Source: a virus (lineage: Duplodnaviria; Caudoviricetes). From it: a stretch of 64,000 nt of DNA. Every line of letters starts with the position of its first letter. Positions within the stretch are counted from its first letter, which is position 1. The stretch spans positions 9,183 to 73,182 of IMG/VR virus record IMGVR_UViG_3300037419_002279; one strand, 5' to 3'. Below the pieces are notes generated by a model, which was not told the origin of the DNA, did not search any database, and saw only the letters and a program-made list of their open reading frames with translations. Below, piece by piece: positions 9,351 to 38,347 of this stretch. The position numbers were made by a program, and so were the translations under genes.

Positions 9351-9569
9351 ATGGCATGGACGGGGACTCGCCGCGAGGACGGCGCGCAGGTGGTGTTGCT
9401 GACCGTTGTCCCGCCGACCTGGGGCGCGCGCGGCCCGCACGGACACGTCGTCAGGGAATGCCCGTGCTGCGGCGATCAGATCCGCACCCGCGAGGTGGCG
9501 CAGGCGATCGCCGACTTCGTGTTTCCGCGGCCGAATCATGACCGGCACTATAATCGGGCGGCGTCGTGA
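9351..9569 (+). CDS. Small hypothetical protein with CPCC motif
   Basis: MAWTGTRRE...ECPCCGD. Confidence 0.5.
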   Translation: MAWTGTRREDGAQVVLLTVVPPTWGARGPHGHVVRECPCCGDQIRTREVAQAIADFVFPRPNHDRHYNRAAS

Positions 9570-9702
9570 GCGTCCTCTGCTTCTTCTTCCCGTGCCGGTG
9601 GGTCCATGTCGACGCCGGCATCTGGCAGTGCCGACGGTGTAAGACCTGTTCATCCGGGCGCGTCCCGGCGCGGTCGCAATGTCCGCCGCAGCCGCATCTG
9701 CC

Positions 9703-9918
9703 TCATTGATGCGCGGCCGCCCCGTAGTTGCGCACGGGGAAGAATGTCGCCCGATGGCCGTAGGTCCCGAGGCCGAGGACCAGGAACAGCGAAATCGCCA
9801 CCGACGCGGCCAGGAACAGCGCCATCGCCGCGTTGTCGCTCAGTGTCAGGCCAGTCGCGAGACACGCCGCCATCAGTAGGGCCGCGACCGCCAAGGCCAG
9901 CAGCATCCACATGCGCAT
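9703..9918 (-). CDS. Small two-helix membrane protein
   Basis: Two hydrophobic segments. Confidence 0.5.
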   Translation of the reverse strand: MRMWMLLALAVAALLMAACLATGLTLSDNAAMALFLAASVAISLFLVLGLGTYGHRATFFPVRNYGAAAHQ

Positions 9919-9948
9919 CCCTCGACCGCAGATCAGGAGCATACCGCT

Positions 9949-10239
9949 ATGAGCGACCGGAAACCCCTATTCCCGGCCCGGCCGGGTGACGACGTCGTGA
10001 CCGCGCCGCCACCGCCGCCACCGCCGTCAGCCCCGTCCCCGCCGCCGGCCCCGACGATCGATACCGAGATGGCCGGGCGGATCGAGCGCGCCGTCATCGA
10101 CGTCTTCATGCGGCGGTTCAACCCGGAACGCCTGCCCTATGCCCAAGCCCGGATCCTGGTGACGCTCGAACTCGAAATCGTCAGCGTGCTTGTCCGGGAA
10201 CTGGCGACGACGCCGGCGTCACGGGCGGCCCCCCCCTGA
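9949..10239 (+). CDS. Pro-rich hypothetical protein
   Basis: GGAG RBS, 96 aa ORF. Confidence 0.55.
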   Translation: MSDRKPLFPARPGDDVVTAPPPPPPPSAPSPPPAPTIDTEMAGRIERAVIDVFMRRFNPERLPYAQARILVTLELEIVSVLVRELATTPASRAAPP

Positions 10240-23251: not shown

Positions 23252-23809
23252 GTGGCAGCGCCGGGCGGCATCTTGGCCCTGGATCTGGCCGGCGACACCG
23301 GCTGGGCCTACGGCCACGTCCATGACCGGACGCCTGACTGCGGGGTGATCCGGCTGCCCCGGCCGGCCGAGTATGGCGAACGGGTCGCGGCGATTCAGAA
23401 CGAGCTCGAGCGGCTGTGCGAGGATCTTCAGCCGCAGAAGGTCATCATCGAAGCGGCGCTGCCGCTGGCAGCCCTCGCCGGGCATACGACCTTCGACACC
23501 GTCCGCCAGCAGTTCGCCTTCAACGGTGCCGCCCACGCCGCCGCCTGGCGCGTCTATGCGGCGCGCGAGGAAATCTCGGCCGACGTCGTCCGCACCGAAT
23601 TGCTCGGCCGCTGCCGGCTGACCAAGCGCGAGCAGGACGCTGGGCGGACGATGAAGGACCTGGTCACCGATTACTGCCGCCAGCGCGGCTGGAAGCCGCC
23701 GGACCATAACGCCGCCGACGCGCTGATGATCTGGGCCTGGCACGTCGGGCGGCTGCGCGGCACCCGCCCGGTGTCCGGGCCGCTGTTTCAGGAAAGGGCA
23801 CTGCAATGA
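23252..23809 (+). CDS. RuvC-like/RNase H-fold Holliday junction resolvase
   Basis: ILALDLAGDTGWA, VIIEA, DHNAADA. Confidence 0.7.
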   Translation: MAAPGGILALDLAGDTGWAYGHVHDRTPDCGVIRLPRPAEYGERVAAIQNELERLCEDLQPQKVIIEAALPLAALAGHTTFDTVRQQFAFNGAAHAAAWRVYAAREEISADVVRTELLGRCRLTKREQDAGRTMKDLVTDYCRQRGWKPPDHNAADALMIWAWHVGRLRGTRPVSGPLFQERALQ

Positions 23810-24984
23810 ACGGACAGGTCGATATCCGCCCTGAGGTCGAAACCGTCTGGGTCCGGACCGACGACCTGTCGCGGCATGCGGAATCGCAGATCAGGGCGAA
23901 GGCTGATCCGCAGCTTGTCGCCGAATACGCCGAGGCGATGCTCGAAGGGGCGGAATTCCCGCCGGTCATCATCTTCCAGGATACCGACGGATACCGGCAC
24001 CTTGCCGACGGTCATCATCGGGTCGATGCAGCGGCGCTGGCTGCACTGAAGGACACGCGTCGATCGGCCGAAGTGTTGGCCGAAATCCGCCCCGGCACAC
24101 TGGATGATGCATTGCGGTACGCGATGCGGGCGAACGTGCAGCACGGCAAGCGGATGTCCGATGCGGACTATGCGCGCGCGATCGGGATCGCCCTCGACCG
24201 CGACATGATTCAGGCAACCAACGCGAAGGACGTGGTGCCCGAGCTTGTCGCGTTGATCGGATGCAGTATCCGCCGTGCGCAGGAATGTTCGGCGGACTAC
24301 CGCAAGGCGCTGATTCTCAAGCGCGACCGACTCATCATCGAGATGCACGCGAAGGGGCGGACGCAGGAAGCGATCAGCGCAAAACTGGGCGTTGGACAAG
24401 CAACTGTCGTCCGCGTTCTAGAGCGAATTATTCAAAAGCGCGACGACGCGGAAACGAATGATCTACCGCAACGGACCTTGCCGCCAAGTCCCTTCCCTGA
24501 AGACGACGAGGCTGGCGAAGCAACAGCGGATGCAAAGGCTGCGGAAGCTGACCAGGAAGAGACCGTTGACGAAGCCGATCAGCAGGAAACCGCTGACGAT
24601 ACCGACGAAGAAACCGTCGCCGCGGCGCCGGCCGCAGCGTCCTACAAGATCGACGTCTCGCCCTACCTGCCGCTGCTGGCGCCGCTGGCCCCGATCGACG
24701 AAGGCGGCGACGATCTAGAAAGCGGCGACGTCGCCGCCCTGCCCGACATCAGCCCGGCTGACGCGGTCAAGGAATCCAAATCCGCGGTCCGCGCGCTTGG
24801 AAGGGTCGAGCGCGAGATCGACAAGATGTTCAAGGCGCTCGACGGCAAGCTGGACGACCTGACCGAACCTTACACGGAAGGCAGCGCCGCAGCGGCGATC
24901 GAAGCGATCGACCGGGCCTTCGACTACCTCGGCGCCCTGCGCAGCTACATCGAAGAGGGGGCCGCCGATGCAAACCCTGCTTAG
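23806..24984 (+). CDS. ParB/Srx-like N-terminal domain + HTH + acidic tail
   Basis: FPPVIIF...LADGHHRVDAA; QEAISAKLGVGQATVVRVL. Confidence 0.7.
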   Translation: MNGQVDIRPEVETVWVRTDDLSRHAESQIRAKADPQLVAEYAEAMLEGAEFPPVIIFQDTDGYRHLADGHHRVDAAALAALKDTRRSAEVLAEIRPGTLDDALRYAMRANVQHGKRMSDADYARAIGIALDRDMIQATNAKDVVPELVALIGCSIRRAQECSADYRKALILKRDRLIIEMHAKGRTQEAISAKLGVGQATVVRVLERIIQKRDDAETNDLPQRTLPPSPFPEDDEAGEATADAKAAEADQEETVDEADQQETADDTDEETVAAAPAAASYKIDVSPYLPLLAPLAPIDEGGDDLESGDVAALPDISPADAVKESKSAVRALGRVEREIDKMFKALDGKLDDLTEPYTEGSAAAAIEAIDRAFDYLGALRSYIEEGAADANPA

Positions 24985-28378: not shown

Positions 28379-29218
28379 ATGGCACTGACCCCACACCAGA
28401 AGCTCGCCCGGGCATGGCTGTCCGGGCTTGCCAATCTGTATCCCACGCCACCCGACATCGAGACGAAAATTCAGGCAATGACGCCGCTGCTGGCGGCAGC
28501 CTTTCCCGACGCGCTAGCCTTCACCGACGAGAGCAAGGCGGCGATGGCGGCGTTGATGCACAGCTTCCCGAGCTTCGGCAGGCTAAACGACTTCCTGAAC
28601 GCCTGGTGGGCGGACCACCAGCCGAAGACGCCGGAAGGCAAGCCCGACGATCTCGATGCCGCGGACATGTCGGCCGAGGACAAGATGGGCGTCCGCATCT
28701 GGCTCGGGCACCAGCGCATCGGCGACCTGCCGTCGGCGGAACTGATCACGCGGCTGGCGGTCATCCGCCGCTATCACGCCGCCGGCTATCGCTGGCTGAT
28801 CGCCCATGACACCGCCGCCGCCGACATCGCCCGCCAGCGCGGCTGGCACGATGCGGCGCCGCGTCCGGCTGACGATGCGGAAAAGGAAGCCGTTGCGCGG
28901 ATGCTGCACGGCGATCGGCGAGGCACGACGGATGCGACCGGCAAGCCGATCCCGTCCGGTGCGCCGAAGCAACCCGACCCGGTGCATCAGGCGGCCGCCG
29001 GCGTCGTCGCCGATCAGGTCCGACAGCGCACCGGCCGAACGCCGGGGCAGGTCGCCCCGGACATCCTCGAAGCGGCCCGTGCGGCGAACGCGAACATCGC
29101 CGCGGCCCGGGAATACCAGGAGAAGCAGCGCGCCGCCGCGGCCGCATCGAACGTCACACCGTTCCGACGCAGCCGGATCGATTGGGACGCCGAGCCGCCG
29201 GCGGCGGCGACCGGATGA
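28379..29218 (+). CDS. Replication-module hypothetical protein (possible helicase loader)
   Basis: Directly follows initiator; function inferred from position only. Confidence 0.5.
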   Translation: MALTPHQKLARAWLSGLANLYPTPPDIETKIQAMTPLLAAAFPDALAFTDESKAAMAALMHSFPSFGRLNDFLNAWWADHQPKTPEGKPDDLDAADMSAEDKMGVRIWLGHQRIGDLPSAELITRLAVIRRYHAAGYRWLIAHDTAAADIARQRGWHDAAPRPADDAEKEAVARMLHGDRRGTTDATGKPIPSGAPKQPDPVHQAAAGVVADQVRQRTGRTPGQVAPDILEAARAANANIAAAREYQEKQRAAAAASNVTPFRRSRIDWDAEPPAAATG

Positions 29219-29418
29219 CTCGGTCGCCGTCCGAGGCGGAACTGGCCGCGACCTGGCACGCGCGCCGCTGTGCGGTCTGCGGCGCCGAGGTGATCGCGGT
29301 CATCCTGCCCTGCGACGGCGTCGACGAAATCAATCTCTGCGCGGCGCATTTCGTCGCCCGGCTGCCGCAGCAGCGCCGGGTGACGGATCGCCACCACCGG
29401 AAGCGACGGACGTCGTGA
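29215..29418 (+). CDS. Small Cys-containing protein
   Basis: CAVCG...C...C; ATGA overlap. Confidence 0.5.
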   Translation: MTRSPSEAELAATWHARRCAVCGAEVIAVILPCDGVDEINLCAAHFVARLPQQRRVTDRHHRKRRTS

Positions 29419-29479
29419 TGATGCGGCGCGGCCCGGAAGGAAAACTCGGACAGTTTCGTCACGCTTTGTCCGAGTCAGG

Positions 29480-30301
29480 TTGAAACGATATCGCCGTCTG
29501 AAAGCAGGAGAAGTCGCCGCCATGATCCGCCGAGTCCCCTGGGACGGACCGAACCCGGCACCGGGCGAATTCCTCGCCGGCAAAGGCCGGTCGTATTTCC
29601 GCATCCGATCGGTCGTGCCGCTGGTCCGGCCGTCGCCCGACGGCGCGCGTTTATCGCTCGATCTGCTGCGTCAGGGCGCGTCCGATCTGCCCGACGGTGC
29701 CGTCGTGCACCCGCTGTCGCGCTATGCCGCATCGGATCCGGCCGGGCCGCCGCGCATCCGTCAGATCACCGACGGGCCGGCTGGCGTCATGCGCGACCGC
29801 TGGCGCGATCCGTCCGACACAAGGCCCACAGCCGCCGCCAGGCCGCGGCTGGTAACCGGCTACCGGTCGTCATGTCCGCTGCGGCGGATGGCGGCCGCAA
29901 AGAAATCGCACATCACCGACATCCACATCGTCGCGGCCGACCATTTCCGCACGATGTATGACCTGGCCTATCTCGGCTACACGATGACCGCCGACGGGGT
30001 GAAAGTAGCCGCGGGCTACGGGCCGCGCCCGGGGCCGTCGCAGGCCGCGCACGCGCAGTCAGCGGCGCGGGGATCGGTGCAGCGCGCGCTCGCCCGCTTC
30101 GCGCCGCCGCAGACCGCGATGCTGACCGCGATCGTGCTGCAAAATTCCAGCCTCTATGCCTGGTGCGCCGAGGGTCGCCTGAACGCCTCGGTCGAAATGG
30201 GCAAGCTGATCGCGATCCTCGATATCCTGGCCGATCATTATGACCGTGAAGTGGATGCGCTGATGCAGACCGACGCGGCCCTGGTGCTCGAACGCGCCTA
30301 G
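29480..30301 (+). CDS. DUF6456-like protein, candidate late transcription regulator
   Basis: AADHFRTMYDLA...LIAILDILADHY; end of the replication operon. Confidence 0.55.
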   Translation: MKRYRRLKAGEVAAMIRRVPWDGPNPAPGEFLAGKGRSYFRIRSVVPLVRPSPDGARLSLDLLRQGASDLPDGAVVHPLSRYAASDPAGPPRIRQITDGPAGVMRDRWRDPSDTRPTAAARPRLVTGYRSSCPLRRMAAAKKSHITDIHIVAADHFRTMYDLAYLGYTMTADGVKVAAGYGPRPGPSQAAHAQSAARGSVQRALARFAPPQTAMLTAIVLQNSSLYAWCAEGRLNASVEMGKLIAILDILADHYDREVDALMQTDAALVLERA

Positions 30302-30454
30302 CGCTATATGCGGCGCATCGACGTGGATCGGTGTCCACGTACAAACTTCAGCGGCCGACGGGAAGCACCCCATCGGCCGCTGCTCTTTTCATCTTGCCGT
30401 GCATAAAGCACAGCGCTATGAAATCATTAGTGTGGCGAGTTGCGCCTCGCTCTC

Positions 30455-30688
30455 TCAGAAAATATCCCGAATCCAGTTTCCGTCGGCCTGCCGGCGCAGC
30501 ACGCTGACTGGCCCGCGCGCCTCGGTCCGCGCGCAGAACAGGTCGAACCGGCCGGACGCGCCGGATTCCGTGGTGCCGATGACGATGGTGCGCGATAGCG
30601 CCCGGCCGCAGTGATCGCAGTATGCGACCGGTGGGATGGATGTGCCGAGCATTTCGGCGGGTTCATCGTCGTGGTGCGAAATCAGCAT
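30455..30688 (-). CDS. Small Zn-ribbon protein
   Basis: YCDHCG...C; preceded by AGGACACCGA. Confidence 0.6.
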   Translation of the reverse strand: MLISHHDDEPAEMLGTSIPPVAYCDHCGRALSRTIVIGTTESGASGRFDLFCARTEARGPVSVLRRQADGNWIRDIF

Positions 30689-30707
30689 GTGTCGGTGTCC
30701 TTTGGTT

Positions 30708-30736
30708 AAAAAAAGGGCGACCCGAAGGCCGCCCTT
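30708..30736 (-). terminator. Rho-independent terminator with TTCG loop
   Basis: AGGGCGGCC-TTCG-GGTCGCCCT followed by T-run on the minus strand. Confidence 0.75.
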
Positions 30737-30742
30737 GCTCGA

Positions 30743-31624
30743 TTAAGCCTCGACGAGATCCCGCCAGACTTTGCCCTCAATCAACCCGGCGACCCTCTTG
30801 TGCCGGTCGAATTTGGCTTGACCGCGGCCGCCCTTCACGGCGCTATCCGCATGCGATGCCCAGTTGGTCAGCACCGAATAAAGCGTCCATGCGTTCGGAC
30901 CCGATTGCGCCGATCCGTCGTCGCGGGCGCGTAGCCAAGCGTGCACCAGGTGATCCGTCAGCGAGTCAGTCGCTTGCGGTAGAGCTTTGCAGACCTGCAT
31001 GGCCTGTTGGTCGCTAATCGCGATCGTCGCCCATTCCTTCCAGCGCCGCGTCCGCTCGATGTGCTCTTCGGCGGCTTTAGTCAGGCCGGCGATAGCTGCC
31101 TTGACGTCAACGGCGCCGGTGTGCCGGGCAGAAAACTGCGCGTAATCCGTCCCGTGGATTGCCGTGTTTGCGCAGACGAACGTGTAGGCCCCGCACTGCC
31201 CCCGGAACCGAAGCGACCCATCATAGGAATTCATCATAATCAAAGCGAGGGCTACACTTACGCCCTTCTTAACTTCGATCTGATGGGCCGGAAGCAGGTA
31301 CTGCCGGAAGCAGCGCGCACCGTTGTTGGCGTAGTCGGTGCCGATCCGCATGCCTTCCAGATCCAGCGTGCTGGACTCTAGCGCTTCCTCAAAGGCGCCG
31401 AAGGCTTCCTCGTTGGTGATCACCTTGTAGCTGTCGGTGGCGACATGCAGCGTATCGCCGGTGTCTTCGCGCACGATGCGCAGGTAGCCGGGCAGTTCGT
31501 GACCCTGTTCGTCGAACAGGCGCCGCGCCTTGACCGGGAAGAAGACCGGCTTGGCATGGTTCGCCGGGATGAAGCCGTACTTGTCCATCTGGTCGGCGTA
31601 GGAAGAAATCGCGTCTAACGGCAT
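30743..31624 (-). CDS. DUF932/DUF945-like phage protein
   Basis: YKVITNEEAF, MNSYDGSL, FVCANTA, NAWTLYSVLTNWASH. Confidence 0.75.
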   Translation of the reverse strand: MPLDAISSYADQMDKYGFIPANHAKPVFFPVKARRLFDEQGHELPGYLRIVREDTGDTLHVATDSYKVITNEEAFGAFEEALESSTLDLEGMRIGTDYANNGARCFRQYLLPAHQIEVKKGVSVALALIMMNSYDGSLRFRGQCGAYTFVCANTAIHGTDYAQFSARHTGAVDVKAAIAGLTKAAEEHIERTRRWKEWATIAISDQQAMQVCKALPQATDSLTDHLVHAWLRARDDGSAQSGPNAWTLYSVLTNWASHADSAVKGGRGQAKFDRHKRVAGLIEGKVWRDLVEA

Positions 31625-31783
31625 CGTCGGTGTCCTTTCTGGTTTTGCGTCCCGCGCAATTTATGCCCGGTGCGCACAGATTATGTCCATCGCGCACAGA
31701 TAGCAAGAACGAAAATCCGGTTCGGTGAAAAAATCCGGCAATTTTTTCGGCCGGAAGAAGTCTGTCGCCGGCAGCCGCCAATA

Positions 31784-31808
31784 AAAAAACGGGGCACCGC
31801 GCCCCGCC
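31784..31808 (-). terminator. Rho-independent terminator
   Basis: CGGGGC-GCGGT-GCCCCG followed by T7 on the minus strand. Confidence 0.65.
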
Positions 31809-31868
31809 TTTCTGATGATACTCTGAACCGAGACGCCTAGTCTGCGGCGGACCAGTACAGGATCAGCC

Positions 31869-32108
31869 CTACAGGTCGCGGATGCTGCGCGAAATCTCGA
31901 ACAGAAGCGTCCGCATCGCGTCGAACCGTCGCGCGACAGCAGGCCGCTTCCGATCGAGTTGGTAGGCCGCGTCCTCGGCCGCGGTTAGGTGCTTGTGGAT
32001 GTGCCTGATCTGCTTGCGTAGCTCATCGGCAACCGCGGGCGGATAGAACACCCGACGATACGCCTCTTCCCGCGTCGGCGGAATGATGGTGAGGTTCTTG
32101 CCGCTCAT
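31869..32108 (-). CDS. Hypothetical protein
   Basis: MSGKNLTIIPP... Confidence 0.55.
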   Translation of the reverse strand: MSGKNLTIIPPTREEAYRRVFYPPAVADELRKQIRHIHKHLTAAEDAAYQLDRKRPAVARRFDAMRTLLFEISRSIRDL

Positions 32109-32848
32109 GTTGCGGCGTCCTGCTTGGTTAGGTGGTAGGTGCAAGGCCGCACTGACTTGTCGACCCGGTAGTCGTAGCCCCAGCGCGCGCCGATGCGCTG
32201 GCACTCCTGGATAGGCGCCGGGTTCTTCCAGCCCGTCGCATCGGCGATCTCCTTCGTCGTCGCACCCCCGTCGCGGGTGGTCAGGTCGATGAATATCTGA
32301 TCCGAAGCGCCGGGTGCGGTCAGCCGCCCGCCGGTGCGCAGGCCGCCCGAACCGCCGCCGCCGGCCGGCGCGTCGATGGTGACCGTCTGGCCGCCTTCCG
32401 GTGCGTAGCTGACCGACACGCCTGTCCGCTTGGCGAGCAGCTTCGCGACGTCGTAGGCACCGATCGCCGTCAGCGGCAGGGCGAAGCTGTAGATCGCGGT
32501 CTTCTGGCCGTCGTCAGGCAACGGCAGCGCCGCCTGCGCCGGGGCCTCCGGGACCGCCGGCGCCGGGTCTTCGATCACCGCCTCGACCGCGTCCGCAAGC
32601 GCCGCATCGTCGCCGTTGGCAACCGCTTCGTCCTTCGCATTGCGGTGCGCATCGAAGATGCAAATCGCTTCGTCGCTGACCGGCTCAAGCCGCACGCCGC
32701 CGTCCGCTTCGGTGATCAGATCGCAGCCGATCGCCTCGCGCAGGTCGCCCTTGACGCCGCGCCGACGCAGGAATTCACGCGCGGACTTTTGCGAGAACCA
32801 GACCTTGTCGATCGTGTCGGCGGTCAGGATGCCGGGAAGATTCATCAT
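32105..32848 (-). CDS. Protein with C-terminal wHTH (DUF3489-like)
   Basis: RDGGATTKEIADATGW. Confidence 0.6.
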   Translation of the reverse strand: MMNLPGILTADTIDKVWFSQKSAREFLRRRGVKGDLREAIGCDLITEADGGVRLEPVSDEAICIFDAHRNAKDEAVANGDDAALADAVEAVIEDPAPAVPEAPAQAALPLPDDGQKTAIYSFALPLTAIGAYDVAKLLAKRTGVSVSYAPEGGQTVTIDAPAGGGGSGGLRTGGRLTAPGASDQIFIDLTTRDGGATTKEIADATGWKNPAPIQECQRIGARWGYDYRVDKSVRPCTYHLTKQDAAT

Positions 32849-32971: not shown

Positions 32972-35815
32972 ATGACCCAACTACAGATCGAATACAGGCC
33001 GGTAGAAGCCTTGATCCCGTATGCGCTGAACCCGAAAACGCATTCGGATGCGCAGATCGCCGCGATCGGCGAGTCGATGCGCGAATTCGGCTGGACGAAC
33101 CCGGTGCTGATCGACGGCCGGGGCGGGATCATCGCCGGACACGGCCGCATCGCCGCGGCGAAGGCGCAGGGGATCAGCGACGTCCCCTGCATCGTCCTCG
33201 ATCACCTGAATGACGCGCAGGTACGCGCCCTGGTCACGCTGGACAACTGGCTGACCGAACACGGCGCGTCCTGGAACCTGCCGCTGCTGCAAGGCGAGAT
33301 TGCCGCGCTGTCGGACATGAAGTTCGACCTCGAACGCTTCGGCATGACAGCGCCGAACCTGACCGCCGCCTTCCCGGGTCTGTTCGCCGCCGGCACCGGT
33401 GCAGCACCGCTGGCGGAACGCACCGCCCCCGTCGGTAACCTGGCCGACCGCTTCGGCCTGCCGCCGTTTTCTGTCCTGTCCGCCCGCGACGGATGGTGGC
33501 AGGCACGCAAGCGGGCCTGGCTGCGCTTAGGCATCCGCTCCGAACTCGGCCGCGGCGTCGAAAACCCCGACGATCCGCAACTGACCTACAAAGGCCAGGC
33601 CAGCCTCAACGCGATCACCGGTCAGCGCAAAGCCGGGCTGCTATACGGCGAACAGAGCGCCGAATTCGATCATTACCGCCGGCGCGAAGGCACCCGCCCA
33701 GCGCTTGCCGAAGAAGGCGACGCCCGGCAGGTGATCGGGACATCGATCTTCGATCCGGTGCTCTGCGAATTGGCCTATCGCTGGTTCTGCCCGCCCGGCG
33801 GTGCCGTCCTCGACCCGTTTGCCGGCGGATCGGTCCGCGGTGTTGTCGCCGCCTGGCTCGGCCGGCAGTATGTCGGCGTCGATCTGTCCGGCCGGCAGAT
33901 CGCGGCAAACAGAGAACAATGGGAGGCTATCCGCGAAGGCCGGCCGACAGCGAAGCCTGAACCCATCATCGAGGATCCTGCCGCGTTGACGCCGATCCAG
34001 GCCGTCGGCGACGTGCTGGTCAAACGCGATGACCTGTTCGAATTCGCCGGCGTACCCGGGGGCAAAGTCCGAACCTGTCTTGCCCTAGCCCGGGCCGCCC
34101 TTGCGGCAGGGCAAGGCGGGCTTGTCACCGCCGGGTCGCGGGCAAGCCCCCAGGTCAACATCGTCGCCCGCGTGGGCCGCGCCCTGGGCCTGCCGGTGCG
34201 GTGCCACACCCCGCAGGGCAAGCTGGCCCTTGAAGTCCAGGCCGCCCTCGAAGCAAGGGCAGAAGTCATCCAGCACAAAGCCGGGCACAACACCGTCATC
34301 GTCGCCCGCGCCCGCGAAGACGCCGCCGCCCGCGGCTGGGCGGAAATCCCCTTCGGCATGGAATGCCTCGAAGCGATCACCCAGACGCGGCGCCAGGTCG
34401 CGAACGTCCCGCCCGATGTCCGACGCATTGTCATCCCCGTCGGATCCGGCATGTCAGCCGCCGGCGTGCTCTGGGGCCTGATCGATCAGGGCCTGTCGAT
34501 GCCGGTCATCGGCGTCGTCGTCGGCGCTGATCCCGCCGATCGGCTGGATCACCATGCGCCGCAGGACTGGCGCGACCGCATGACGCTGATCCCGTCCGGG
34601 TCGGACTATCACGAGCCGGCCGCGCAAACAGCGTTCGGACATCTCGACCTCGACCCCCACTACGAAGCGAAGTGCATCGATTTCCTTGAGCCCGGTGACC
34701 TGCTCTGGATCGTTGGCGTGCGCGCCACGTCCAGACTGGCGTCCCGGCCGGCGTCGACTTCAGTCGTGGCACCGTCGGCCGGGTCTGCCCTGCGCTGGCG
34801 CGTGGGCGCAAAGACGATGACCGCCCGCCATGACTGCACCCTGTCCGGCATCCAGACCCGCTGCGGCGGCGGTTGCTGCCGCGCCGGGCCGTCCCGCAGT
34901 TACTGGCCGGCGCGCGCCTACGGCGATGTCTGCGGCAACCTCGGCCCGTCCGGCTGCACCCTGTCCCCGGACGACAAGCCGGTGACCTGCCTGCTCTATC
35001 CGCTGGTGGCCCACGACGATAAGGGCTCGATCGTGCTGCATCATCGGACCCGGCTGCCGACGTCGGTCTGCCGCGGCAATTACGGCCAGGGGCCGATGCT
35101 GATCGATGCGATCGAAGGCAACCTGCGCACGCTGTTCGGCGATGCGCAATTCGAGCGGGTGCATGCCGAGGTCACCGCCGGGCGCGACAGCTATTTCGAC
35201 GTCCCGCCCGATATCGCCGAAGCCGTCCGCCGCGAACACGGCTGGGCCGAGCATGCGATCAAGCCGGTGCCGCGGTCGCAGGCGGGGACGATACCAGAGT
35301 CCACACCGCCCGCGCGGCCCGATCCGGTCTGGATCGAAGGAGACTCACGTGCGATCGCCGATCTCCTGCCGGCGGATTTCGAAGCCGACTTCATCTGGAC
35401 CTGCCCGCCCTACGCGGACCTCGAAGTCTACAGCGACCATCCGGCCGATCTGTCGGCAATGTCAGACCCGGACTTTACTGACGCCTATCGGCAGATCATC
35501 GCCGCAGCCTGCGCGCGGCTGAAGCCGGACCGGTTCGCCGCGATTACCGTGGGCGAAGTGCGCGATGATCGGGGCATGTGCCGCAACCTGCCCGGCCTGA
35601 CGATCGAGGCGTTCGAAGCGGCCGGCCTGAAGCTCTACAACGACGCGATCCTGGTCACCGCCGTCGGCAGCCTGCCGATCCGTGTCGGCCGGCAATTCAC
35701 CGCCGCCCGCAAGCTCGGACGGACCCATCAATCGGTGCTGGTGTTCATCAAGGGCGACCCGAAAGCGGCAACGGCCGCGTGCGGGGACGTCGAATTCGGG
35801 GACGCGCCCACATAG
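32972..35815 (+). CDS. ParB-like domain + DNA amino-methyltransferase split by a PLP-dependent enzyme domain and a Cys-rich domain
   Basis: ParB GIIAGHGRIAAA; MTase motif I VLDPFAGGSVRG and motif IV WTCPPY; PLP fold-II LTPIQ..VLVKRDDL..GGKVR, VIPVGSGMS, DLDPHYEAK; CGGGCC..KPVTCLLYP. Confidence 0.85.
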   Translation: MTQLQIEYRPVEALIPYALNPKTHSDAQIAAIGESMREFGWTNPVLIDGRGGIIAGHGRIAAAKAQGISDVPCIVLDHLNDAQVRALVTLDNWLTEHGASWNLPLLQGEIAALSDMKFDLERFGMTAPNLTAAFPGLFAAGTGAAPLAERTAPVGNLADRFGLPPFSVLSARDGWWQARKRAWLRLGIRSELGRGVENPDDPQLTYKGQASLNAITGQRKAGLLYGEQSAEFDHYRRREGTRPALAEEGDARQVIGTSIFDPVLCELAYRWFCPPGGAVLDPFAGGSVRGVVAAWLGRQYVGVDLSGRQIAANREQWEAIREGRPTAKPEPIIEDPAALTPIQAVGDVLVKRDDLFEFAGVPGGKVRTCLALARAALAAGQGGLVTAGSRASPQVNIVARVGRALGLPVRCHTPQGKLALEVQAALEARAEVIQHKAGHNTVIVARAREDAAARGWAEIPFGMECLEAITQTRRQVANVPPDVRRIVIPVGSGMSAAGVLWGLIDQGLSMPVIGVVVGADPADRLDHHAPQDWRDRMTLIPSGSDYHEPAAQTAFGHLDLDPHYEAKCIDFLEPGDLLWIVGVRATSRLASRPASTSVVAPSAGSALRWRVGAKTMTARHDCTLSGIQTRCGGGCCRAGPSRSYWPARAYGDVCGNLGPSGCTLSPDDKPVTCLLYPLVAHDDKGSIVLHHRTRLPTSVCRGNYGQGPMLIDAIEGNLRTLFGDAQFERVHAEVTAGRDSYFDVPPDIAEAVRREHGWAEHAIKPVPRSQAGTIPESTPPARPDPVWIEGDSRAIADLLPADFEADFIWTCPPYADLEVYSDHPADLSAMSDPDFTDAYRQIIAAACARLKPDRFAAITVGEVRDDRGMCRNLPGLTIEAFEAAGLKLYNDAILVTAVGSLPIRVGRQFTAARKLGRTHQSVLVFIKGDPKAATAACGDVEFGDAPT

Positions 35816-36073: not shown

Positions 36074-36286
36074 TCATTGAAGCCTCCCGAGCAGCGCGCG
36101 GGCAGCGGCGTGCACGCCGACCGCGATGATAATCCAGACCAGGCCGCTGACAAAGCGGCCGGCCCCTTCGATCTGTCCCGACGCCGCCGGGGCGATGAAC
36201 CCGGCGACGGCAAAGGCGACAGCGACGTTGTTCAGACCCGTCGCGGCAAGCTTGATCCGTTCGTTGTGGATGTCCGGTGCCGGCAT
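36074..36286 (-). CDS. Small two-helix membrane protein
   Basis: IHNERIKLAATGLNNVAVA. Confidence 0.65.
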   Translation of the reverse strand: MPAPDIHNERIKLAATGLNNVAVAFAVAGFIAPAASGQIEGAGRFVSGLVWIIIAVGVHAAARALLGRLQ

Positions 36287-36501
36287 CAGGAAGCATCCGG
36301 CGGGCGCGGCCCGCCATGGACCTCGCCGCTGGTGTCGAAATGCCAGATGCGTTCGGATCCGTCCCAGCATTCCCAGGCAGTCCAGTTCGGGTCATGGAAA
36401 ATGCCCGGGATCATCCGGCGCGCGGGGTTCTGCGCATCGGCTGTCGCCTGCCGCGTCTCGCCTGTCACCCGGTTGCGGAAGACGTACGTCGGCATCATCA
36501 T
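36286..36501 (-). CDS. Hypothetical protein
   Basis: Coupled ORF with GAGG RBS. Confidence 0.55.
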   Translation of the reverse strand: MMMPTYVFRNRVTGETRQATADAQNPARRMIPGIFHDPNWTAWECWDGSERIWHFDTSGEVHGGPRPPDAS

Positions 36502-36683
36502 CCCTCCCTCAGTGCGGCGATGAAGCGCTGCACGACCGCGACGTCATGTTCCATCAGGCTTGCCGTCGCGACGACATTGCCATCGGACAGCTTCCGCCGC
36601 CCGCCTAGTTCGATCACCTCTACAATCGCCTGTTGCAGCCGCATTGCGGCCCGCAAGGCGCCGATCGCCTGTTCCGATTTCAT
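36498..36683 (-). CDS. Hypothetical protein
   Basis: MKSEQAIGALR... Confidence 0.55.
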   Translation of the reverse strand: MKSEQAIGALRAAMRLQQAIVEVIELGGRRKLSDGNVVATASLMEHDVAVVQRFIAALREG

Positions 36684-36765
36684 GTCCGCGCCCCCTTGAC
36701 CAGACGCGCAACGATACTGACGTGTAGCCGGAATAGAAGACCGGCCAAGCTCTGCCATGGGCACA

Positions 36766-37101
36766 TCATATCGGTGTCCTTTCGTCGGCGGTCACGGTGT
36801 GCATCCGGCCGCCGGTGTTGTTGGTGACCTCGAAGCTGTCGGGGTAGCTGGCGAAAATCGCCAGCGCGTCGCCGCCGGGCCGCGACGTGATCTGACCGGT
36901 GACTGCGAACAGCCCGTCGGCCGTCACATCGGGGAAGACCGCAAGTTCCAGCATCCAGCCGCTGCGATCGGTGCGCCGATCGCCCGTGTGGTCGATGAAC
37001 AGCACGACGTCCCAGCCTGACCCGCCGGGATTGGCGGTCACGCGCACCTCGAACGGCGTCCCGCCGTCGCGCGGTTGAACAGTTGTTTGCACGGTCAGCA
37101 C
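36766..37101 (-). CDS. Hypothetical protein
   Basis: GTG start with GGAG RBS. Confidence 0.5.
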   Translation of the reverse strand: MLTVQTTVQPRDGGTPFEVRVTANPGGSGWDVVLFIDHTGDRRTDRSGWMLELAVFPDVTADGLFAVTGQITSRPGGDALAIFASYPDSFEVTNNTGGRMHTVTADERTPI

Positions 37102-37394
37102 CTCCAGCGGCAGATGACGACGACGTCCGGCTGCGGCGGCTGCGCGGCGGCAACGGCAGCCAGTGCGATGATAGGCAGCAGCAGCAAACCGAGCGCGACA
37201 TTCCCGGCGGTTTCGTTGTTTTTCTGCGTTTCTAGATTGGCTTCGGCCTGTCTTTGCGGCAGCCGGTCGCACGCGACCTTGTCGCCTTGCTGGCACCAGG
37301 CCTGATCCTGTTTGAGATTGTCGTGCGCATAGGACGCACAGCCGGACAGAAGCGTCAGCGCCATCAGCGCCGCGCGAATGCGGTATTTTACCAT
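37095..37394 (-). CDS. Lipoprotein with C-terminal hydrophobic helix
   Basis: Lipobox LLSGC; GLLLLPIIALAAVAAA. Confidence 0.7.
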   Translation of the reverse strand: MVKYRIRAALMALTLLSGCASYAHDNLKQDQAWCQQGDKVACDRLPQRQAEANLETQKNNETAGNVALGLLLLPIIALAAVAAAQPPQPDVVVICRWRC

Positions 37395-37420
37395 AGGTTC
37401 GGTGTCCTTTTTGGTGGTTA

Positions 37421-38347
37421 CTAGATCGAGCGATCGTCAGTTGGCGTCCGCACCGGCGCCGGGCGGCTGAACGGCGGCGTTGGCGGCGCACTAGGGGCCG
37501 CAGATCCGGCAAACGGCTGTGTCGGCGGCGTAGCCGGGGCAACGGGCGGCTGTCGGCCGTAAGGCTGCGTCGCGAACTGCGTGCTATCGCGCATGCACGA
37601 CAGCATGCGCAAAACCGCGACCTGCGACCCGCTCATCTTCGCGATCCAGGGCGTTTCGGTCCCGTCGGGGAAGCTGACAACCATACTGTTCGCCTGGGCA
37701 AGGCGCGTCAGAAACCGCTGCGGCGTGTCGATATCGAGTTCAACAAGCCCACCCCCGTTCGGATGCGCTGTTCCGATGCCCTCCCAGGGAACGTCCTGAT
37801 CAAACTGCACCGTCATGTGCAGCCGTGTCCCGGCAGGAATGCGCCAGCTGTCTTTATGCAGGTGGATGACGAGGCTGTCGTCTTTCTTGAACCATTTGAC
37901 GATGAAGACCTTGTCGGGACCGGTGACCTTGACGCCGCACATCCAGGTGCCGTCGTTGACCGTGCCGGCAATGGTTGTCCATGCGCCGTACTGACTGATG
38001 GTGCGCACCTCGGCCCGGGCAGCGGGGATAAGCAAGCCGGCCGCCGCGACCGCCGCTAGGATCATGGATTTCATCGGCCGCGCCGCGCGCTGCGCCGCCG
38101 TCGGATAGGCATCGCCGATGCAGATCGCACCGCCCCGGGGATGGATGCCGTAGATGATCGCGCGCCGGCCGTGGGCGCCGTGTTCGGCGTTCATCCGATC
38201 AGCGATCTGCTGCGCCTGGTCGCGGGTCGCGGCGTCTTCGCGGATCACCTCGTAAGGTGACTTACGAAACCAGACGGAAAAAGCGGTGCATTCCGCAATG
38301 CGCTGTCGCTCGTAAGTATCGGCGGGATGTTCATGAGATCTAGGCAT
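37421..38347 (-). CDS. Hypothetical protein; appears to be two genes in one frame (second starts 38074 with a signal peptide)
   Basis: Internal MKSMILAAVAAAGLLIPAARA. Confidence 0.55.
   Translation of the reverse strand: MPRSHEHPADTYERQRIAECTAFSVWFRKSPYEVIREDAATRDQAQQIADRMNAEHGAHGRRAIIYGIHPRGGAICIGDAYPTAAQRAARPMKSMILAAVAAAGLLIPAARAEVRTISQYGAWTTIAGTVNDGTWMCGVKVTGPDKVFIVKWFKKDDSLVIHLHKDSWRIPAGTRLHMTVQFDQDVPWEGIGTAHPNGGGLVELDIDTPQRFLTRLAQANSMVVSFPDGTETPWIAKMSGSQVAVLRMLSCMRDSTQFATQPYGRQPPVAPATPPTQPFAGSAAPSAPPTPPFSRPAPVRTPTDDRSI

What the first reader, a model, noticed from the sequence alone, without database searches (positions are those of the whole stretch)
32972..35815. ParB-methyltransferase with a PLP enzyme and a Cys cluster inserted inside it: candidate new DNA hypermodification enzyme
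Seen: a single 947 aa ORF in this order: ParB-like domain (about 32975-33260), MTase N-half with SAM-binding VLDPFAGG (about 33800), a complete-looking fold-type-II PLP domain (about 33985-34720, candidate Schiff-base Lys in GGKVR at 34064, phosphate loop VGSGMS), a Cys-rich CGGGCC...C...C...KPVTC domain (about 34820-35260), then the MTase catalytic half with TCPPY (35399-35413). Established: PPY marks N4C/N6A amino-methyltransferases, the KRDDL/GGK motifs are those of the D-cysteine desulfhydrase/ACC deaminase family, and PLP enzymes take part in thymidine hypermodification in some Pseudomonas phages. Inference: the fusion couples base methylation or aminoalkyl transfer to amino-acid elimination chemistry, possibly installing or trimming a SAM-derived group as anti-restriction protection.
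Basis: partly seen in the sequence, partly recalled or inferred. Interest (0 to 1): 0.85.

Follow-up and report, generated by a model that had tools for sequence, protein, structure and literature searches.

The report
Three-enzyme phage DNA-modification protein
One phage gene joins a DNA methyltransferase to a vitamin-B6 (PLP) enzyme, whose studied relatives trim amino acids hanging on phage DNA, and to a metal-binding domain of the family of a DNA-amine methylase; this common but unstudied trio may put a mark other than plain methyl on DNA.

Summary
Positions 32972-35815 (+) are one 947-aa ORF in a ~91% complete phage record. Its order is ParB-N, MTase motif I, an intact fold-type-II PLP domain, an 8-Cys domain, then MTase motif IV (CPPY).

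It is not a chimera or an intein. Over 1000 database proteins join this MTase to this PLP domain. The three enzyme modules (M, P, C) occur in every order, as consecutive separate genes, and alone.

New points:
- The "split" lies at a circular-permutation seam that corresponds to the termini of ordinary beta-class MTases.
- CPPY and the whole MTase core are the same in relatives with and without the PLP domain.
- The closest characterised relatives of the PLP domain are ViI gp226 and M6 gp52, PLP decarboxylases that act on amino acids attached to thymine in DNA. Its Lys365 aligns with their proposed PLP lysines.
- The Cys domain is DUF3109-like, the family assigned to DpdM (dPreQ1 N-methylase).
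- The phage lacks the 5-hmdU pathway genes.

Best reading, at moderate confidence: an M-P-C pathway makes a SAM-derived, amine-bearing base mark. Chemistry is untested.

The scan met the M-P fusion earlier on other DNA (e1-5894212, e1-6002098). The C module and the split P|C|M operon are additions made here.

The parts
32972..35815 (+). Whole gene, 947 aa (P0001): ParB-N + permuted amino-MTase + PLP domain + 8-Cys domain
   Evidence: Single ORF. 1196 near-length homologues, and the best 120 all carry PF00291. AF2 mean pLDDT 83.9.
32972..33376 (+). ParB/Srx-type N-terminal domain (residues 1-135; GHGR at 56-59)
   Evidence: phrog_620 E 3e-39 and phrog_15396 E 5e-60. Profile hits to Noc/ParB structures, E 7.6e-9. 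pLDDT above 90.
33437..33559 (+). Conserved helix/strand element ahead of the MTase core (residues 156-196; invariant F161, P165, W176, R179, W183, G187, G193, R194). It travels with the MTase in all architectures.
   Evidence: Invariant columns in 80 sequences. It is present next to MTn in fused and split forms.
33740..33937 (+). MTase part 1 (residues 257-322): motif X/I, FDPV...VLDPFAGGSVRG, the SAM-binding half
   Evidence: PF01555 profile positions 178-214 of 221. Aligns to the C-terminal motif I of 8urk, 2zie and 9c3u. D281, P282, F283, G286, S287, V288 and R289 are invariant.
33971..34747 (+). Compact fold-type-II PLP domain (residues 334-592). Key residues: Lys365 (34064-34066), Ser392-Pro393, GSGMS 491-495, Tyr564-Glu565 (34661-34666).
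   Evidence: Pfam PALP E 1.6e-10. VIA Z 26.4 to 1j0a and 25.8 to DcyD 4d8t, with 258 residues aligned. Lys, Ser, Tyr and Glu align to ACC deaminase K51, S78, Y294 and E295. phrog_3650 (the ViI gp226 family) E 2.5e-35. hhalign to gp226 gives probability 97.7%.
34781..35281 (+). DUF3109-like 8-Cys domain (residues 604-770; Cys622, 631, 635, 636, 654, 662, 673, 700)
   Evidence: The eight Cys are invariant or at least 90% conserved in 73 sequences. 54 of 73 family members hit PF11307, best E 1.4e-8; the window copy itself scores only 15.4 bits. AF2 of the domain alone gives pLDDT 93.1 and pTM 0.88. The best viral fold match is a 'zinc- or iron-chelating domain' protein, E 4.5e-6.
35309..35812 (+). 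MTase part 2 (residues 780-947): motifs IV-VIII, with CPPY at 35402-35413
   Evidence: Aligns to the N-terminal (S/D)PPY region of 2zie and 8urk. C811, P812, P813 and Y814 are invariant. phrog_498 E 3e-113.

Best explanation
SHOWN. This is one genuine gene of a tailed phage. It lies between the replication genes and the terminase genes. It combines four modules:
- a ParB-type N-domain;
- a circularly permuted SAM-dependent amino-methyltransferase core (M), with motif I first and CPPY last;
- a compact PLP enzyme (P), placed at the permutation seam;
- a DUF3109-like domain with eight cysteines (C), placed at the same seam.

M, P and C form a recurrent phage module set. They occur fused in all orders, as three consecutive genes, in pairs and alone. 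P belongs to the same phage clade as ViI gp226 and M6 gp52, which decarboxylate amino acids attached to a base in polymeric DNA. C belongs to the Pfam family assigned to DpdM, which methylates a primary amine on a DNA base.

INFERRED MECHANISM.
1. M flips out a base and puts a SAM-derived substituent on an exocyclic amino group of adenine or cytosine in phage DNA. The substituent that would feed P is the 3-amino-3-carboxypropyl part of SAM, because no other amino-acid installer is encoded.
2. P binds the free alpha-amine of that substituent as a Schiff base after transimination from Lys365. It then decarboxylates or otherwise trims it to an aminoalkyl group.
3. C N-methylates the new primary amine.

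The outcome would be a bulky, positively charged base mark that shields the phage DNA from host nucleases. Relatives without C would stop one step earlier. Relatives with an AspH-like oxygenase or an extra class-I MTase would tailor the mark differently.
For: Real and widespread:
- 1196 near-length homologues, and the top 120 all carry PF00291, nearly all together with PF01555.
- An independent IMG/VR contig, L163, carries the same PALP-Cys-MTc junctions at 95-100% amino-acid identity.

Module shuffling:
- Observed orders include MTn-PALP-MTc, MTn-PALP-Cys-MTc, MTn-MTc-PALP, MTn-MTc-Cys-PALP, MTn-Cys-PALP-MTc, MTn-Cys-MTc, PALP-Cys, ParB-PALP and ParB-Cys.
- A tree of the MT core needs at least 12 gains or losses of PALP.

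Gene neighbourhood:
- In 80 viral loci holding this PLP subfamily, 71 have it fused to, or within about 5 kb of, the CPPY MTase.
- L165 encodes P, C and M as three consecutive ORFs. L160 and L170 show other split orders. L011 has P next to M.

P is catalytically intact:
- K365, S392, P393, the GSG loop, D561, Y564, E565 and K567 are invariant in 80 sequences.

P is related to DNA-acting decarboxylases:
- phrog_3650 is ViI gp226 (801 bits) and phrog_7093 is M6 gp52 (530 bits). The window's P domain hits them at E 2.5e-35 and 8.7e-14.
- hhalign gives probability 97.7%, E 2e-12 to gp226, with shared KR(D/E)D, G-x-K-x-R, SPQ, GYN, QVAN(I/V)P and P-x-YE-x-K motifs.
- K365 aligns with gp226 K92 and gp52 K36, the proposed PLP lysines (PMC8989533).
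- PMC8989533 shows that both enzymes decarboxylate amino-acid:thymine conjugates in DNA.

C is linked to DUF3109:
- DpdM is assigned to that family and yields N-methyl-dPreQ1 in vivo (PMC10516641).

Other tailoring modules in relatives:
- An AspH-like oxygenase in P0084, and a class-I MTase in P0100.

No other installer in this phage:
- No thymidylate-synthase-like gene, with the control search working, and no detectable M6 gp51 or gp54 homologue in the 91%-complete record.
Against: - No chemistry has been measured.
- The MTase core shows no conserved-residue switch between 125 PALP-bearing and 107 PALP-free relatives, and CPPY is shared by both. So either the whole family transfers something other than methyl, or M is a plain methyltransferase and step 1 of the proposal is wrong.
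- The top structure-sequence matches of the M core are ordinary N4C/N6A methylases: 2zie, 8s9n and CcrM.
- P also occurs away from this MTase: fused to a SET domain (L149), next to LPG_synthase_C-like genes (L124, L126), next to a Thy1-like gene (L131), and alone.
- The window's own C domain scores below Pfam's cut-off for DUF3109. Its profile did not find the experimentally tested VH7D DpdM.
- P keeps the ACC-deaminase Tyr-Glu pair, so the reaction type, decarboxylation or elimination, cannot be read from sequence.
- The AF2 inter-domain geometry is uncertain (pTM 0.58).
Confidence: 0.4

Rival explanations
1. Ordinary methyl mark plus cofactor housekeeping. M is a normal m6A or m4C methyltransferase. 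P works on the SAM-derived small molecule common to all methyltransferases. For example, it could destroy the product inhibitor S-adenosylhomocysteine, or convert SAM, so that a phage enzyme can methylate a whole genome quickly. C would be a second methylase or a structural metal domain.
For: - The MT core is identical with and without P.
- P can sit anywhere: inserted, N-terminal, C-terminal, or in a separate gene. No fixed geometry relative to the M active site is therefore needed.
- P partners with unrelated SAM enzymes: the CPPY MTase, a SET domain (L149), and class-I MTases (a neighbour in L124; P0100).
- P keeps the catalytic tetrad of ACC deaminase, whose substrate is a SAM-derived amino acid.
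Against: - I know of no fold-type-II PLP enzyme that acts on SAM or SAH (own knowledge).
- The closest characterised relatives of P act on DNA-tethered amino acids, not on free metabolites (PMC8989533).
- ParB-P and ParB-C fusions without M argue that P and C are themselves brought to DNA.
- This reading gives no role to the AspH-like and DUF3109 modules.
Confidence: 0.22
2. Two independent marks. M methylates DNA as usual. P, with or without C, trims an amino acid that is attached to DNA by another, still unrecognised phage or host enzyme. The fusion would only co-localise the enzymes on DNA through the ParB domain.
For: - P homologues work downstream of dedicated amino-acid:DNA transferases in ViI and M6 (PMC8989533).
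- Stand-alone P genes lie beside LPG_synthase_C-like (aminoacyl-transferase fold) genes in L124 and L126, and beside a Thy1-like gene in L131.
- Many neighbours of the gene in the window have no family match.
Against: - No thymidylate-synthase-like gene was found in the record. Single-sequence searches with M6 gp51 and gp54 also found nothing, but these are weak tests.
- The tight and repeated linkage is to M, not to any other gene: 71 of 80 viral loci.
- Minimal forms are just MTn-PALP-MTc proteins of about 550 aa.
Confidence: 0.15
3. Sulfur chemistry. P acts as a cysteine desulfhydrase, like its structural neighbour DcyD. It would feed sulfide to the Cys-rich metal domain for cluster assembly, or for a thio or methylthio modification of DNA.
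For: - D-cysteine desulfhydrase is the best Foldseek match (E 3e-11) and the best sequence match among solved structures.
- C has eight conserved cysteines.
- ParB-type, PLP and Fe-S proteins cooperate in Dnd phosphorothioation (PMC10853773).
Against: - Most P-bearing relatives lack C altogether: 93 of 125 in the sample.
- P carries Tyr-Glu as in ACC deaminase, gp226 and gp52, not the Tyr-Thr/Ser of DcyD.
- No PP-loop or DndC-like partner was seen.
Confidence: 0.04
4. Artefact: an assembly chimera, or an intein-like self-splicing insert inside an ordinary ParB-MTase.
For: PALP-free relatives join MTn directly to MTc, so the inserts are dispensable for the MTase fold.
Against: - The same junctions occur in many independent assemblies, and in L163 at 95-100% identity.
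- The inserts are enzymes with conserved active sites.
- No intein family scored at E up to 1.
- The same domains also sit at the C- or N-terminus or in separate genes.
Confidence: 0.01

Closest known systems
ViI gp226 (phrog_3650) and M6 gp52 (phrog_7093): PLP-dependent decarboxylases of amino-acid:thymine conjugates in phage DNA (PMC8989533)
   Same: Same phage-specific branch of fold-type-II PLP enzymes.
- Profile hits at E 2.5e-35 and 8.7e-14, and hhalign probability 97.7% to gp226.
- Shared motifs: the Lys motif, SPQ (Pro where DcyD and ACC deaminase have Asn), GYN, QVAN(I/V)P and P-x-YE/D-x-K.
- The paper modelled gp226 on 1j0a, which is also my top structural match.
   Different: - Here the domain is only 259 aa, against 424 aa for gp226.
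- It is embedded in a methyltransferase.
- The phage lacks a thymidylate-synthase-like gene, and no gp51 (transferase) or gp54 (kinase) homologue was detected.
- The substrate base and the attached group are unknown.
PALP-free ParB-methyltransferases of prophages and phages (phrog_498; e.g. Listeria phage B054 gp77, Enterococcus phage phiFL3A gp36)
   Same: - Same ParB-N domain and same conserved linker element.
- Same permuted MTase core, with DPFAGGSVRG and CPPY.
- 45-51% identity over the shared parts, with no conserved-residue switches.
   Different: - They join MTn directly to MTc and carry no P or C module.
- My searches found no experimental product or recognition site for the CPPY family.
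DpdM, dPreQ1 N-methyltransferase (DUF3109/YkgJ family; PMC10516641)
   Same: - A small Cys-rich domain with two predicted four-Cys metal sites.
- 54 of 73 relatives of the window's domain hit PF11307.
- No solved structure matches the fold, in line with the paper's 'unique fold'.
- Both are encoded in phage DNA-modification contexts.
   Different: - The motif here is C-x8-C-x3-CC, not CxxxCxxCC.
- The window copy scores only 15.4 bits against a 33.5-bit cut-off.
- The family profile did not detect VH7D DpdM.
- There are no 7-deazaguanine genes here.
ACC deaminase / D-cysteine desulfhydrase (TIGR01275; PDB 1j0a, 1rqx, 4d8t)
   Same: - Best solved-structure matches: Z 24-26, about 257 residues aligned, rmsd about 3 A.
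- The K51/S78/Y294/E295 equivalents are all present.
   Different: - About 70 residues shorter.
- Asn79 is replaced by an invariant Pro.
- The NCBIfam score is 23 bits against a cut-off of 289.
- About 20% identity.
- Phage-restricted: the nearest ESM Atlas clusters are 90-100% viral.
SAM-dependent 3-amino-3-carboxypropyl and aminopropyl transferases with methyltransferase-like folds (TYW2, spermidine synthase). Recalled from established knowledge and not tested here.
   Same: They show that a SAM-binding Rossmann-fold enzyme can transfer the amino-acid arm of SAM, or the aminopropyl arm of decarboxylated SAM, to a nitrogen nucleophile. That is the step proposed for M.
   Different: - No sequence relation was tested or is expected.
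- M has classical amino-MTase motifs.
- This is a resemblance in proposed chemistry only.

Membership tests
N6/N4 amino-DNA-methyltransferase (Pfam PF01555) | SAM-binding motif I (D-P-F-x-G-x-G) | tested here: met
   VLDPFAGGS at residues 279-287. PF01555 scores 28.5 bits against a 26.7 cut-off. It aligns to motif I of 8urk, 2zie and 9c3u and is invariant in the family.
N6/N4 amino-DNA-methyltransferase (Pfam PF01555) | Catalytic motif IV (D/N/S)-P-P-(Y/F) | tested here: inconclusive
   PPY is present, but the first residue is Cys (C811). It is invariant in 133 of 133 PALP-bearing and 106 of 107 PALP-free relatives; one has SPPY. Cys is isosteric with the Ser of N4C enzymes, which is an inference.
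N6/N4 amino-DNA-methyltransferase (Pfam PF01555) | Beta-class motif order (IV...VIII, TRD, X, I) | tested here: not met
   The order is reversed. The motif I region (271-319) precedes the PPY region (769-864), each aligning to the opposite end of beta-class chains. PALP-free relatives show the same order. The protein therefore belongs to a circularly permuted subfamily.
N6/N4 amino-DNA-methyltransferase (Pfam PF01555) | Transfers methyl to N6-A or N4-C | not testable with these tools
   Needs nucleoside LC-MS or SMRT data. None was found in the literature searched.
ParB/Srx N-terminal domain (PF02195) | Profile match to the ParB N-domain | tested here: met
   The Pfam score of 19.7 bits is below the 26.3 cut-off. 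However, PHROG ParB families match at E 3e-39 to 5e-60, and the family profile hits Noc and ParB structures at E 7.6e-9.
Fold-type-II PLP enzymes (PF00291) | Profile match above the gathering score, and the complete two-lobed fold | tested here: met
   41.2 bits against a 35 cut-off. 258 residues align to 1j0a at Z 26.4 and rmsd 2.9, spanning chain residues 16-319.
Fold-type-II PLP enzymes (PF00291) | Schiff-base lysine and phosphate-binding Gly-rich loop | tested here: met
   K365 aligns to the PLP lysine of DcyD, of 1j0a and of ACC deaminase (K51). The GSGMS loop is conserved, and all these residues are invariant in 80 sequences.
ACC deaminase / D-cysteine desulfhydrase (TIGR01275, NF003030) | Family-level profile score | tested here: not met
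   TIGR01275 scores 23.4 bits against a cut-off of 289. The DcyD equivalogs score 16-20 bits against 429-610.
ACC deaminase / D-cysteine desulfhydrase (TIGR01275, NF003030) | Catalytic residues K51, S78, Y294, E295 (ACC deaminase numbering) | tested here: met
   K365, S392, Y564 and E565 align to them. Asn79 is replaced by the invariant Pro393.
ViI gp226 / M6 gp52 DNA amino-acid decarboxylases (phrog_3650, phrog_7093) | Sequence membership of the families that hold the characterised enzymes | tested here: met
   gp226 is phrog_3650 (801 bits) and gp52 is phrog_7093 (530 bits). The window domain scores 123 bits (E 2.5e-35, profile positions 24-241 of 392) and 52.7 bits (positions 16-263 of 279). 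hhalign gives probability 97.7% and 77%.
ViI gp226 / M6 gp52 DNA amino-acid decarboxylases (phrog_3650, phrog_7093) | Genomic company: dUMP hydroxymethylase, 5-hmdU DNA kinase, amino-acid:DNA transferase | tested here: not met
   There is no PF00303 match in the 91%-complete record, with the control search positive in 10 of 14 genomes. Single-sequence searches with M6 gp51 and gp54 found nothing, which is weak evidence of absence.
ViI gp226 / M6 gp52 DNA amino-acid decarboxylases (phrog_3650, phrog_7093) | Decarboxylates an amino acid attached to a base in DNA | not testable with these tools
   Needs a biochemical assay.
DUF3109 / YkgJ / DpdM Cys-cluster proteins (PF11307, PF03692) | Profile match | tested here: inconclusive
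   The window domain scores 15.4 bits against 33.5 (E 0.017). 54 of 73 relatives match PF11307, best E 1.4e-8, always over the same C-terminal part of the profile, and one matches PF03692.
DUF3109 / YkgJ / DpdM Cys-cluster proteins (PF11307, PF03692) | N-terminal CxxxCxxCC motif plus further cysteines forming two metal sites | tested here: inconclusive
   Eight conserved Cys are present, enough for two four-Cys sites. The N-terminal spacing is C-x8-C-x3-CC rather than CxxxCxxCC. Metal binding was not modelled.
DUF3109 / YkgJ / DpdM Cys-cluster proteins (PF11307, PF03692) | Detectable similarity to the experimentally tested VH7D DpdM | tested here: inconclusive
   Neither PF11307 nor the profile of alignment A2 found any match in the VH7D genome. 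The paper's DUF3109 assignment rests on HHpred of the phiSM protein.
Intein / self-splicing insert | Hint-domain profile and splice-junction residues | tested here: not met
   No intein family scored at E up to 1. The inserts fold as a PLP enzyme and a Cys-cluster domain. The same domains also occur terminally and as separate genes.

The most novel reading that the evidence does not exclude
The CPPY ParB-'methyltransferases' are not, or not only, methyltransferases. With the gp226-like PLP domain and the DpdM-like domain they would form a self-contained pathway. That pathway would use SAM as an amino-acid donor to build a previously unknown base, such as N-(3-aminopropyl)- or N-(N-methylaminopropyl)-adenine or -cytosine. 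This would be the first amino-acid-derived hypermodification installed on an exocyclic nitrogen without a 5-hydroxymethylpyrimidine precursor. It would be spread over thousands of marine and soil phages.
Probability: 0.25. Interest if true: 0.9.

Novelty: new variant of a known kind. Interest (0 to 1): 0.72.

Why it matters
Phage DNA hypermodifications are a main route of escape from restriction enzymes and CRISPR. They are also a source of new enzymes for DNA labelling. All amino-acid-derived marks known so far start from 5-hydroxymethyl-pyrimidines made before replication.

Here a PLP enzyme of the same clade as the known DNA-amino-acid decarboxylases is wired again and again to a SAM-dependent amino-methyltransferase and to a DpdM-like domain. 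The phage carrying them shows no 5-hmdU pathway genes.

If the trio makes a SAM-derived aminoalkyl mark, that would be a new biosynthetic logic for DNA modification, found in over a thousand database proteins. It would also force a re-reading of the very common prophage 'ParB-methylases'.

If instead the PLP domain only services the cofactor, that would be a new kind of helper for methyltransferases.

Either answer can be reached with one cloned gene, and with a cultured phage (Pseudanabaena phage Pam4) that encodes the M-P form.

Tried and rejected
Tools and searches that gave nothing:
The neighbours of stand-alone C and P proteins were therefore studied through the search for related loci instead.
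- Alignment A2 was too diverse for a pattern scan. A smaller alignment, A4, was used instead.
- A direct link between the C domain and the tested VH7D DpdM was sought with PF11307 and with the A2 profile. Neither gave a match.
- The paper's supplements are not held.
- The C-domain model had no match at Z 2 or above in 48,161 solved chains. A profile search of PDB sequences gave only chance hits.
- tblastn of the C domain against cultured phages found nothing meaningful.
- The plasmid collection gave only ParB-domain hits. No relation to the characterised ssDNA m6A enzymes M.EcoGIX and M.BceJIII (PMC7736820) could be shown.
- Literature searches for this fusion, for DNA aminocarboxypropyl marks, and for CPPY or ParB-methyltransferase specificity found no study of it.

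Ideas tested and dropped:
- The idea that CPPY is specific to PLP-bearing forms was tested and rejected.
- The idea that the MT core is adapted to the PLP partner was tested and rejected.
- Erythrobacter phage R6L gp1 was at first counted as a clean M-P form. It holds only a divergent PALP-like insert: profile E 1e-13 over positions 45-187, with the Lys region unmatched. Its paper treats it as a CcrM-like methylase with no experiment.

Jobs not used: complex prediction and the sequencing-run tools, because no claim here depends on them.

Full report
**1. What is in the sequence**

Positions 32972-35815 (+) form one uninterrupted 947-aa ORF, P0001. An in-frame GTG lies 24 nt upstream.

The window belongs to an IMG/VR virus record of 73,182 bases that CheckV rates as 91% complete. 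The gene lies in a clear tailed-phage layout:
- Upstream: Erf-like annealing protein and exonuclease (18.6-21.0 kb, minus strand), a separate ParB-like gene (23.8-25.0 kb), and a replication initiator (27.4-28.4 kb).
- Downstream: small terminase (38.5 kb), large terminase (38.9-40.3 kb), portal, head protease and major head protein.

**2. Domain anatomy**

Pfam finds three families:
- PALP, residues 347-535, above its cut-off.
- The C-terminal, motif-I part of N6_N4_Mtase, residues 272-308.
- A sub-threshold ParB_N.

PHROGs give phrog_498 'DNA methyltransferase' (E 3e-113, three stretches), several ParB families, and two PLP families, phrog_3650 and phrog_7093.

An AlphaFold2 model built on 80 collinear homologues has mean pLDDT 83.9. 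Its low-confidence linkers lie at 142-155, 197-256, 592-603 and 775-777, which gives the domain borders used in 'parts'. pTM is 0.58, so the mutual placement of the domains is not reliable.

**3. The MTase is permuted, not randomly split**

Against solved beta-class enzymes (8urk, 2zie, 9c3u), residues 271-319 align with the chains' C-terminal motif I. Residues 769-864 align with their N-terminal (S/D)PPY region.

PALP-free relatives have the same order, with MTn joined directly to MTc. The insert site therefore corresponds to the natural N- and C-termini of ordinary enzymes of this fold. Such a surface seam should tolerate added domains.

This explains why the same added domains are found either at the seam or at a terminus.

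**4. The architecture is real, common and modular**

A near-length search gave 1196 homologues. The 120 best all carry PF00291, nearly all together with PF01555.

Mapping six segments of P0001 onto 240 relatives gave these architectures:
- 107 ParB-MTase without insert.
- About 96 with MTn-PALP-MTc.
- 9 with the present order, MTn-PALP-Cys-MTc.
- Others with MTn-MTc-PALP, MTn-MTc-Cys-PALP, MTn-PALP-MTc-Cys, MTn-MTc-PALP-Cys or MTn-Cys-PALP-MTc.
- Forms without ParB.

Later sets added MTn-Cys-MTc and MTn-MTc-Cys without PALP, PALP-Cys and Cys-PALP without the MTase, and ParB-PALP and ParB-Cys.

A FastTree of the MT core needs 32 architecture changes in all, and at least 12 gains or losses of PALP. 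The sample is biased towards relatives of the query.

An independent IMG/VR contig, L163, carries the same PALP-Cys-MTc junctions at 95-100% amino-acid identity. Chimera and intein explanations are excluded.

**5. Gene neighbourhood**

In 80 viral loci that hold this PLP subfamily:
- 58 have it in one ORF with MTase parts.
- 13 have a separate PALP gene, or a ParB-PALP fusion ORF (L160), with the CPPY MTase within about 5 kb.
- 9 have no such MTase in the stretch held.

Split forms:
- In L165 the three modules are three consecutive ORFs, P then C then M. L160 and L170 show further split orders.
- In L011, a bacterial MAG, a 246-aa PALP gene precedes a 300-aa MTase gene. In L016 a PALP gene stands alone.

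P, C and M thus behave as components of one system, in the Rosetta-stone sense.

Where P lacks this MTase, its company is informative:
- A SET-domain fusion (L149).
- LPG_synthase_C-like genes, which have an aminoacyl-transferase fold (L124, L126).
- A class-I MTase (L124).
- A Thy1-like gene (L131).

**6. The PLP domain**

Structure:
- Foldseek and VIA-align place residues 334-592 closest to the ACC-deaminase homologue 1j0a (Z 26.4, 258 residues aligned, rmsd 2.9).
- Next come D-cysteine desulfhydrase (Z 25.8) and ACC deaminase (Z 24.7).
- These rank ahead of serine dehydratase, threonine synthase and TrpB (Z about 22).

Catalytic residues:
- A family profile aligns K365, S392, Y564 and E565 with ACC deaminase K51, S78, Y294 and E295.
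- They are invariant in 80 fused and 42 stand-alone sequences.
- Asn79 is replaced by an invariant proline.

Distribution:
- The domain falls far below the NCBIfam cut-offs for ACC deaminase and DcyD.
- Its nearest ESM Atlas clusters are stand-alone proteins of about 250-280 aa that are 90-100% viral.
- 937 short relatives were found, many of 250-290 aa on long contigs.

**7. The decisive relative**

I checked this as follows.
- The profile of the stand-alone PLP proteins finds exactly one gene in each phage genome (E 5.8e-10 and 1.2e-8).
- These genes are YP_004327553 (gp226) and YP_001294560 (gp52).
- gp226 defines phrog_3650 (801 bits) and gp52 defines phrog_7093 (530 bits). The window's domain hits them at E 2.5e-35 and 8.7e-14.
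- hhalign to gp226 gives probability 97.7% (E 2e-12). To gp52 it gives 77% over 225 columns.
- Shared features are KR(D/E)D, G-x-K-x-R, SPQ with the unusual Pro, GYN, QVAN(I/V)P and P-x-Y-(E/D)-x-K.
- K365 aligns with gp226 K92 and gp52 K36, the residues proposed for the internal aldimine in PMC8989533.

That paper shows with purified proteins that both enzymes decarboxylate amino acids (O-seryl, C-alpha-glycyl) attached to thymine in polymeric DNA. It also modelled gp226 on 1j0a. So the nearest characterised enzymes act on DNA-tethered amino acids.

**8. The Cys domain**

- A full scan of 1.84 billion cluster representatives found only 155 relatives. Many are stand-alone proteins of about 175 aa.
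- Eight cysteines are conserved.
- 54 of 73 relatives match PF11307 (DUF3109), best E 1.4e-8. The window's copy is sub-threshold at 15.4 bits.
- The domain folds confidently on its own (pLDDT 93.1).
- It matches a viral 'zinc- or iron-chelating domain' protein (E 4.5e-6) and no solved structure.
- PMC10516641 assigns DpdM to DUF3109/YkgJ, reports two predicted metal sites, and shows that VH7D DpdM yields N-methyl-dPreQ1 in E. coli.
- I could not detect VH7D DpdM with PF11307 or with the family profile. The link is therefore at Pfam-family level only.

**9. The methyltransferase core**

- CPPY is present in 133 of 133 PALP-bearing and 106 of 107 PALP-free relatives.
- No position that is at least 80% conserved differs between the two groups.
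- The best sequence matches among solved structures are ordinary amino-methyltransferases: 2zie with SPPY, an N4C enzyme 8s9n, CcrM and M.MboIIA.
- I found no experimental product for any CPPY enzyme. The R6L paper only predicts a CcrM-like site.

**10. Synthesis**

Shown:
- A real multi-enzyme gene and a recurrent M-P-C module set.
- An intact PLP site.
- Specific kinship of P to DNA amino-acid decarboxylases.
- DUF3109 kinship of C.
- No thymidylate-synthase-like gene in this phage. Weak single-sequence searches also found no gp51 or gp54 homologue.

Inferred: P needs an alpha-amino acid on DNA. The only constant partner is a SAM-binding transferase. The simplest coherent route is therefore transfer of the amino-acid arm of SAM to an exocyclic nitrogen, then PLP-dependent trimming, then amine methylation by C. 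AspH-like oxygenase or class-I MTase modules would be alternative tailoring steps.

The main weakness is that the M core is unchanged in PALP-free relatives. That fits a plain methyltransferase better, unless the whole family is unusual.

The chief rival is therefore that P services the cofactor or its by-product. The second rival is that P and C work on an adduct made by an unknown enzyme.

I give the pathway reading 0.40, cofactor housekeeping 0.22, an independent adduct 0.15 and sulfur chemistry 0.04. The remainder is unassigned.

**11. Novelty**

- No paper on this fusion was found.
- Databases label members merely as 'pyridoxal-phosphate dependent enzyme' or 'DNA modification methylase'.
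- The scan had already met the M-P fusion on other genomes.
- New here: the C module, the split P|C|M operon, the permutation-seam explanation, the identity of the M core with and without P, and the verified residue-level link to gp226 and gp52.
- A cultured phage, Pseudanabaena phage Pam4 (Pam4_70, 829 aa), encodes a clean M-P form, so the question can be tested directly.

Noticed in passing
L149:2128-3657 (IMG/VR giant-virus MAG contig): A 509-aa ORF fuses a SET domain (a protein-lysine methyltransferase fold, E 6e-6) to the same PLP subfamily. This is a second, unrelated SAM enzyme partnered with this PLP domain.
   Followed up: partly
L124:8870-12523 and L126:5497-7856: Stand-alone PLP genes of this subfamily lie beside LPG_synthase_C-like (aminoacyl-transferase fold) genes in two unrelated contigs (GC 0.60 and 0.25). 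In L124 an NTP-transferase and a class-I methyltransferase are also present. This may be another amino-acid-installing pathway.
   Followed up: partly
P0084, P0109, P0114 (about 1150-1220 aa relatives): These relatives carry an Asp/Arg beta-hydroxylase-like (PF05118) module of about 400 aa between the PLP domain and MTc, in the place of the Cys domain. P0100 has an extra N-terminal class-I methyltransferase.
   Followed up: partly
L168:7005-10139: A link-MTn-Cys ORF ends at 8537, and the matching MTc lies about 1 kb downstream in another ORF (9492-10139). The MTase may be interrupted by an inserted element or split into two genes.
   Followed up: no
window 23806-24984 (+): A second, separate ParB-like gene (392 aa, phrog_1033, E 1.6e-14) lies in the same phage, upstream of the replication initiator.
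   Followed up: no
window 30743-31624 (-): A DUF932 protein (PF06067, E 4e-20; phrog_1221) lies in the block of unannotated genes between the replication module and the MTase gene.
   Followed up: no
window 28379-32848 and 36077-38347: Nearly all ORFs flanking the MTase gene on both strands have no Pfam or PHROG match. An unrecognised partner enzyme could hide here.
   Followed up: partly
L179 (Erythrobacter phage vB_EliS_R6L gp1, 830 aa): This cultured phage's 'DNA modification methylase' holds a divergent PALP-like insert at the same seam. The profile match (E 1e-13) covers only the central 140 positions, and the Lys region is not matched. It may be a degenerate or re-purposed version.
   Followed up: partly
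OR354820.1:32002-32568 (Staphylococcus phage Alsa_1): A 146-kb Staphylococcus phage encodes a 'hypothetical protein' with 28% identity to the PLP domain over 74% of its length (E 7e-14). It is the only other cultured-phage hit besides Pam4.
   Followed up: no
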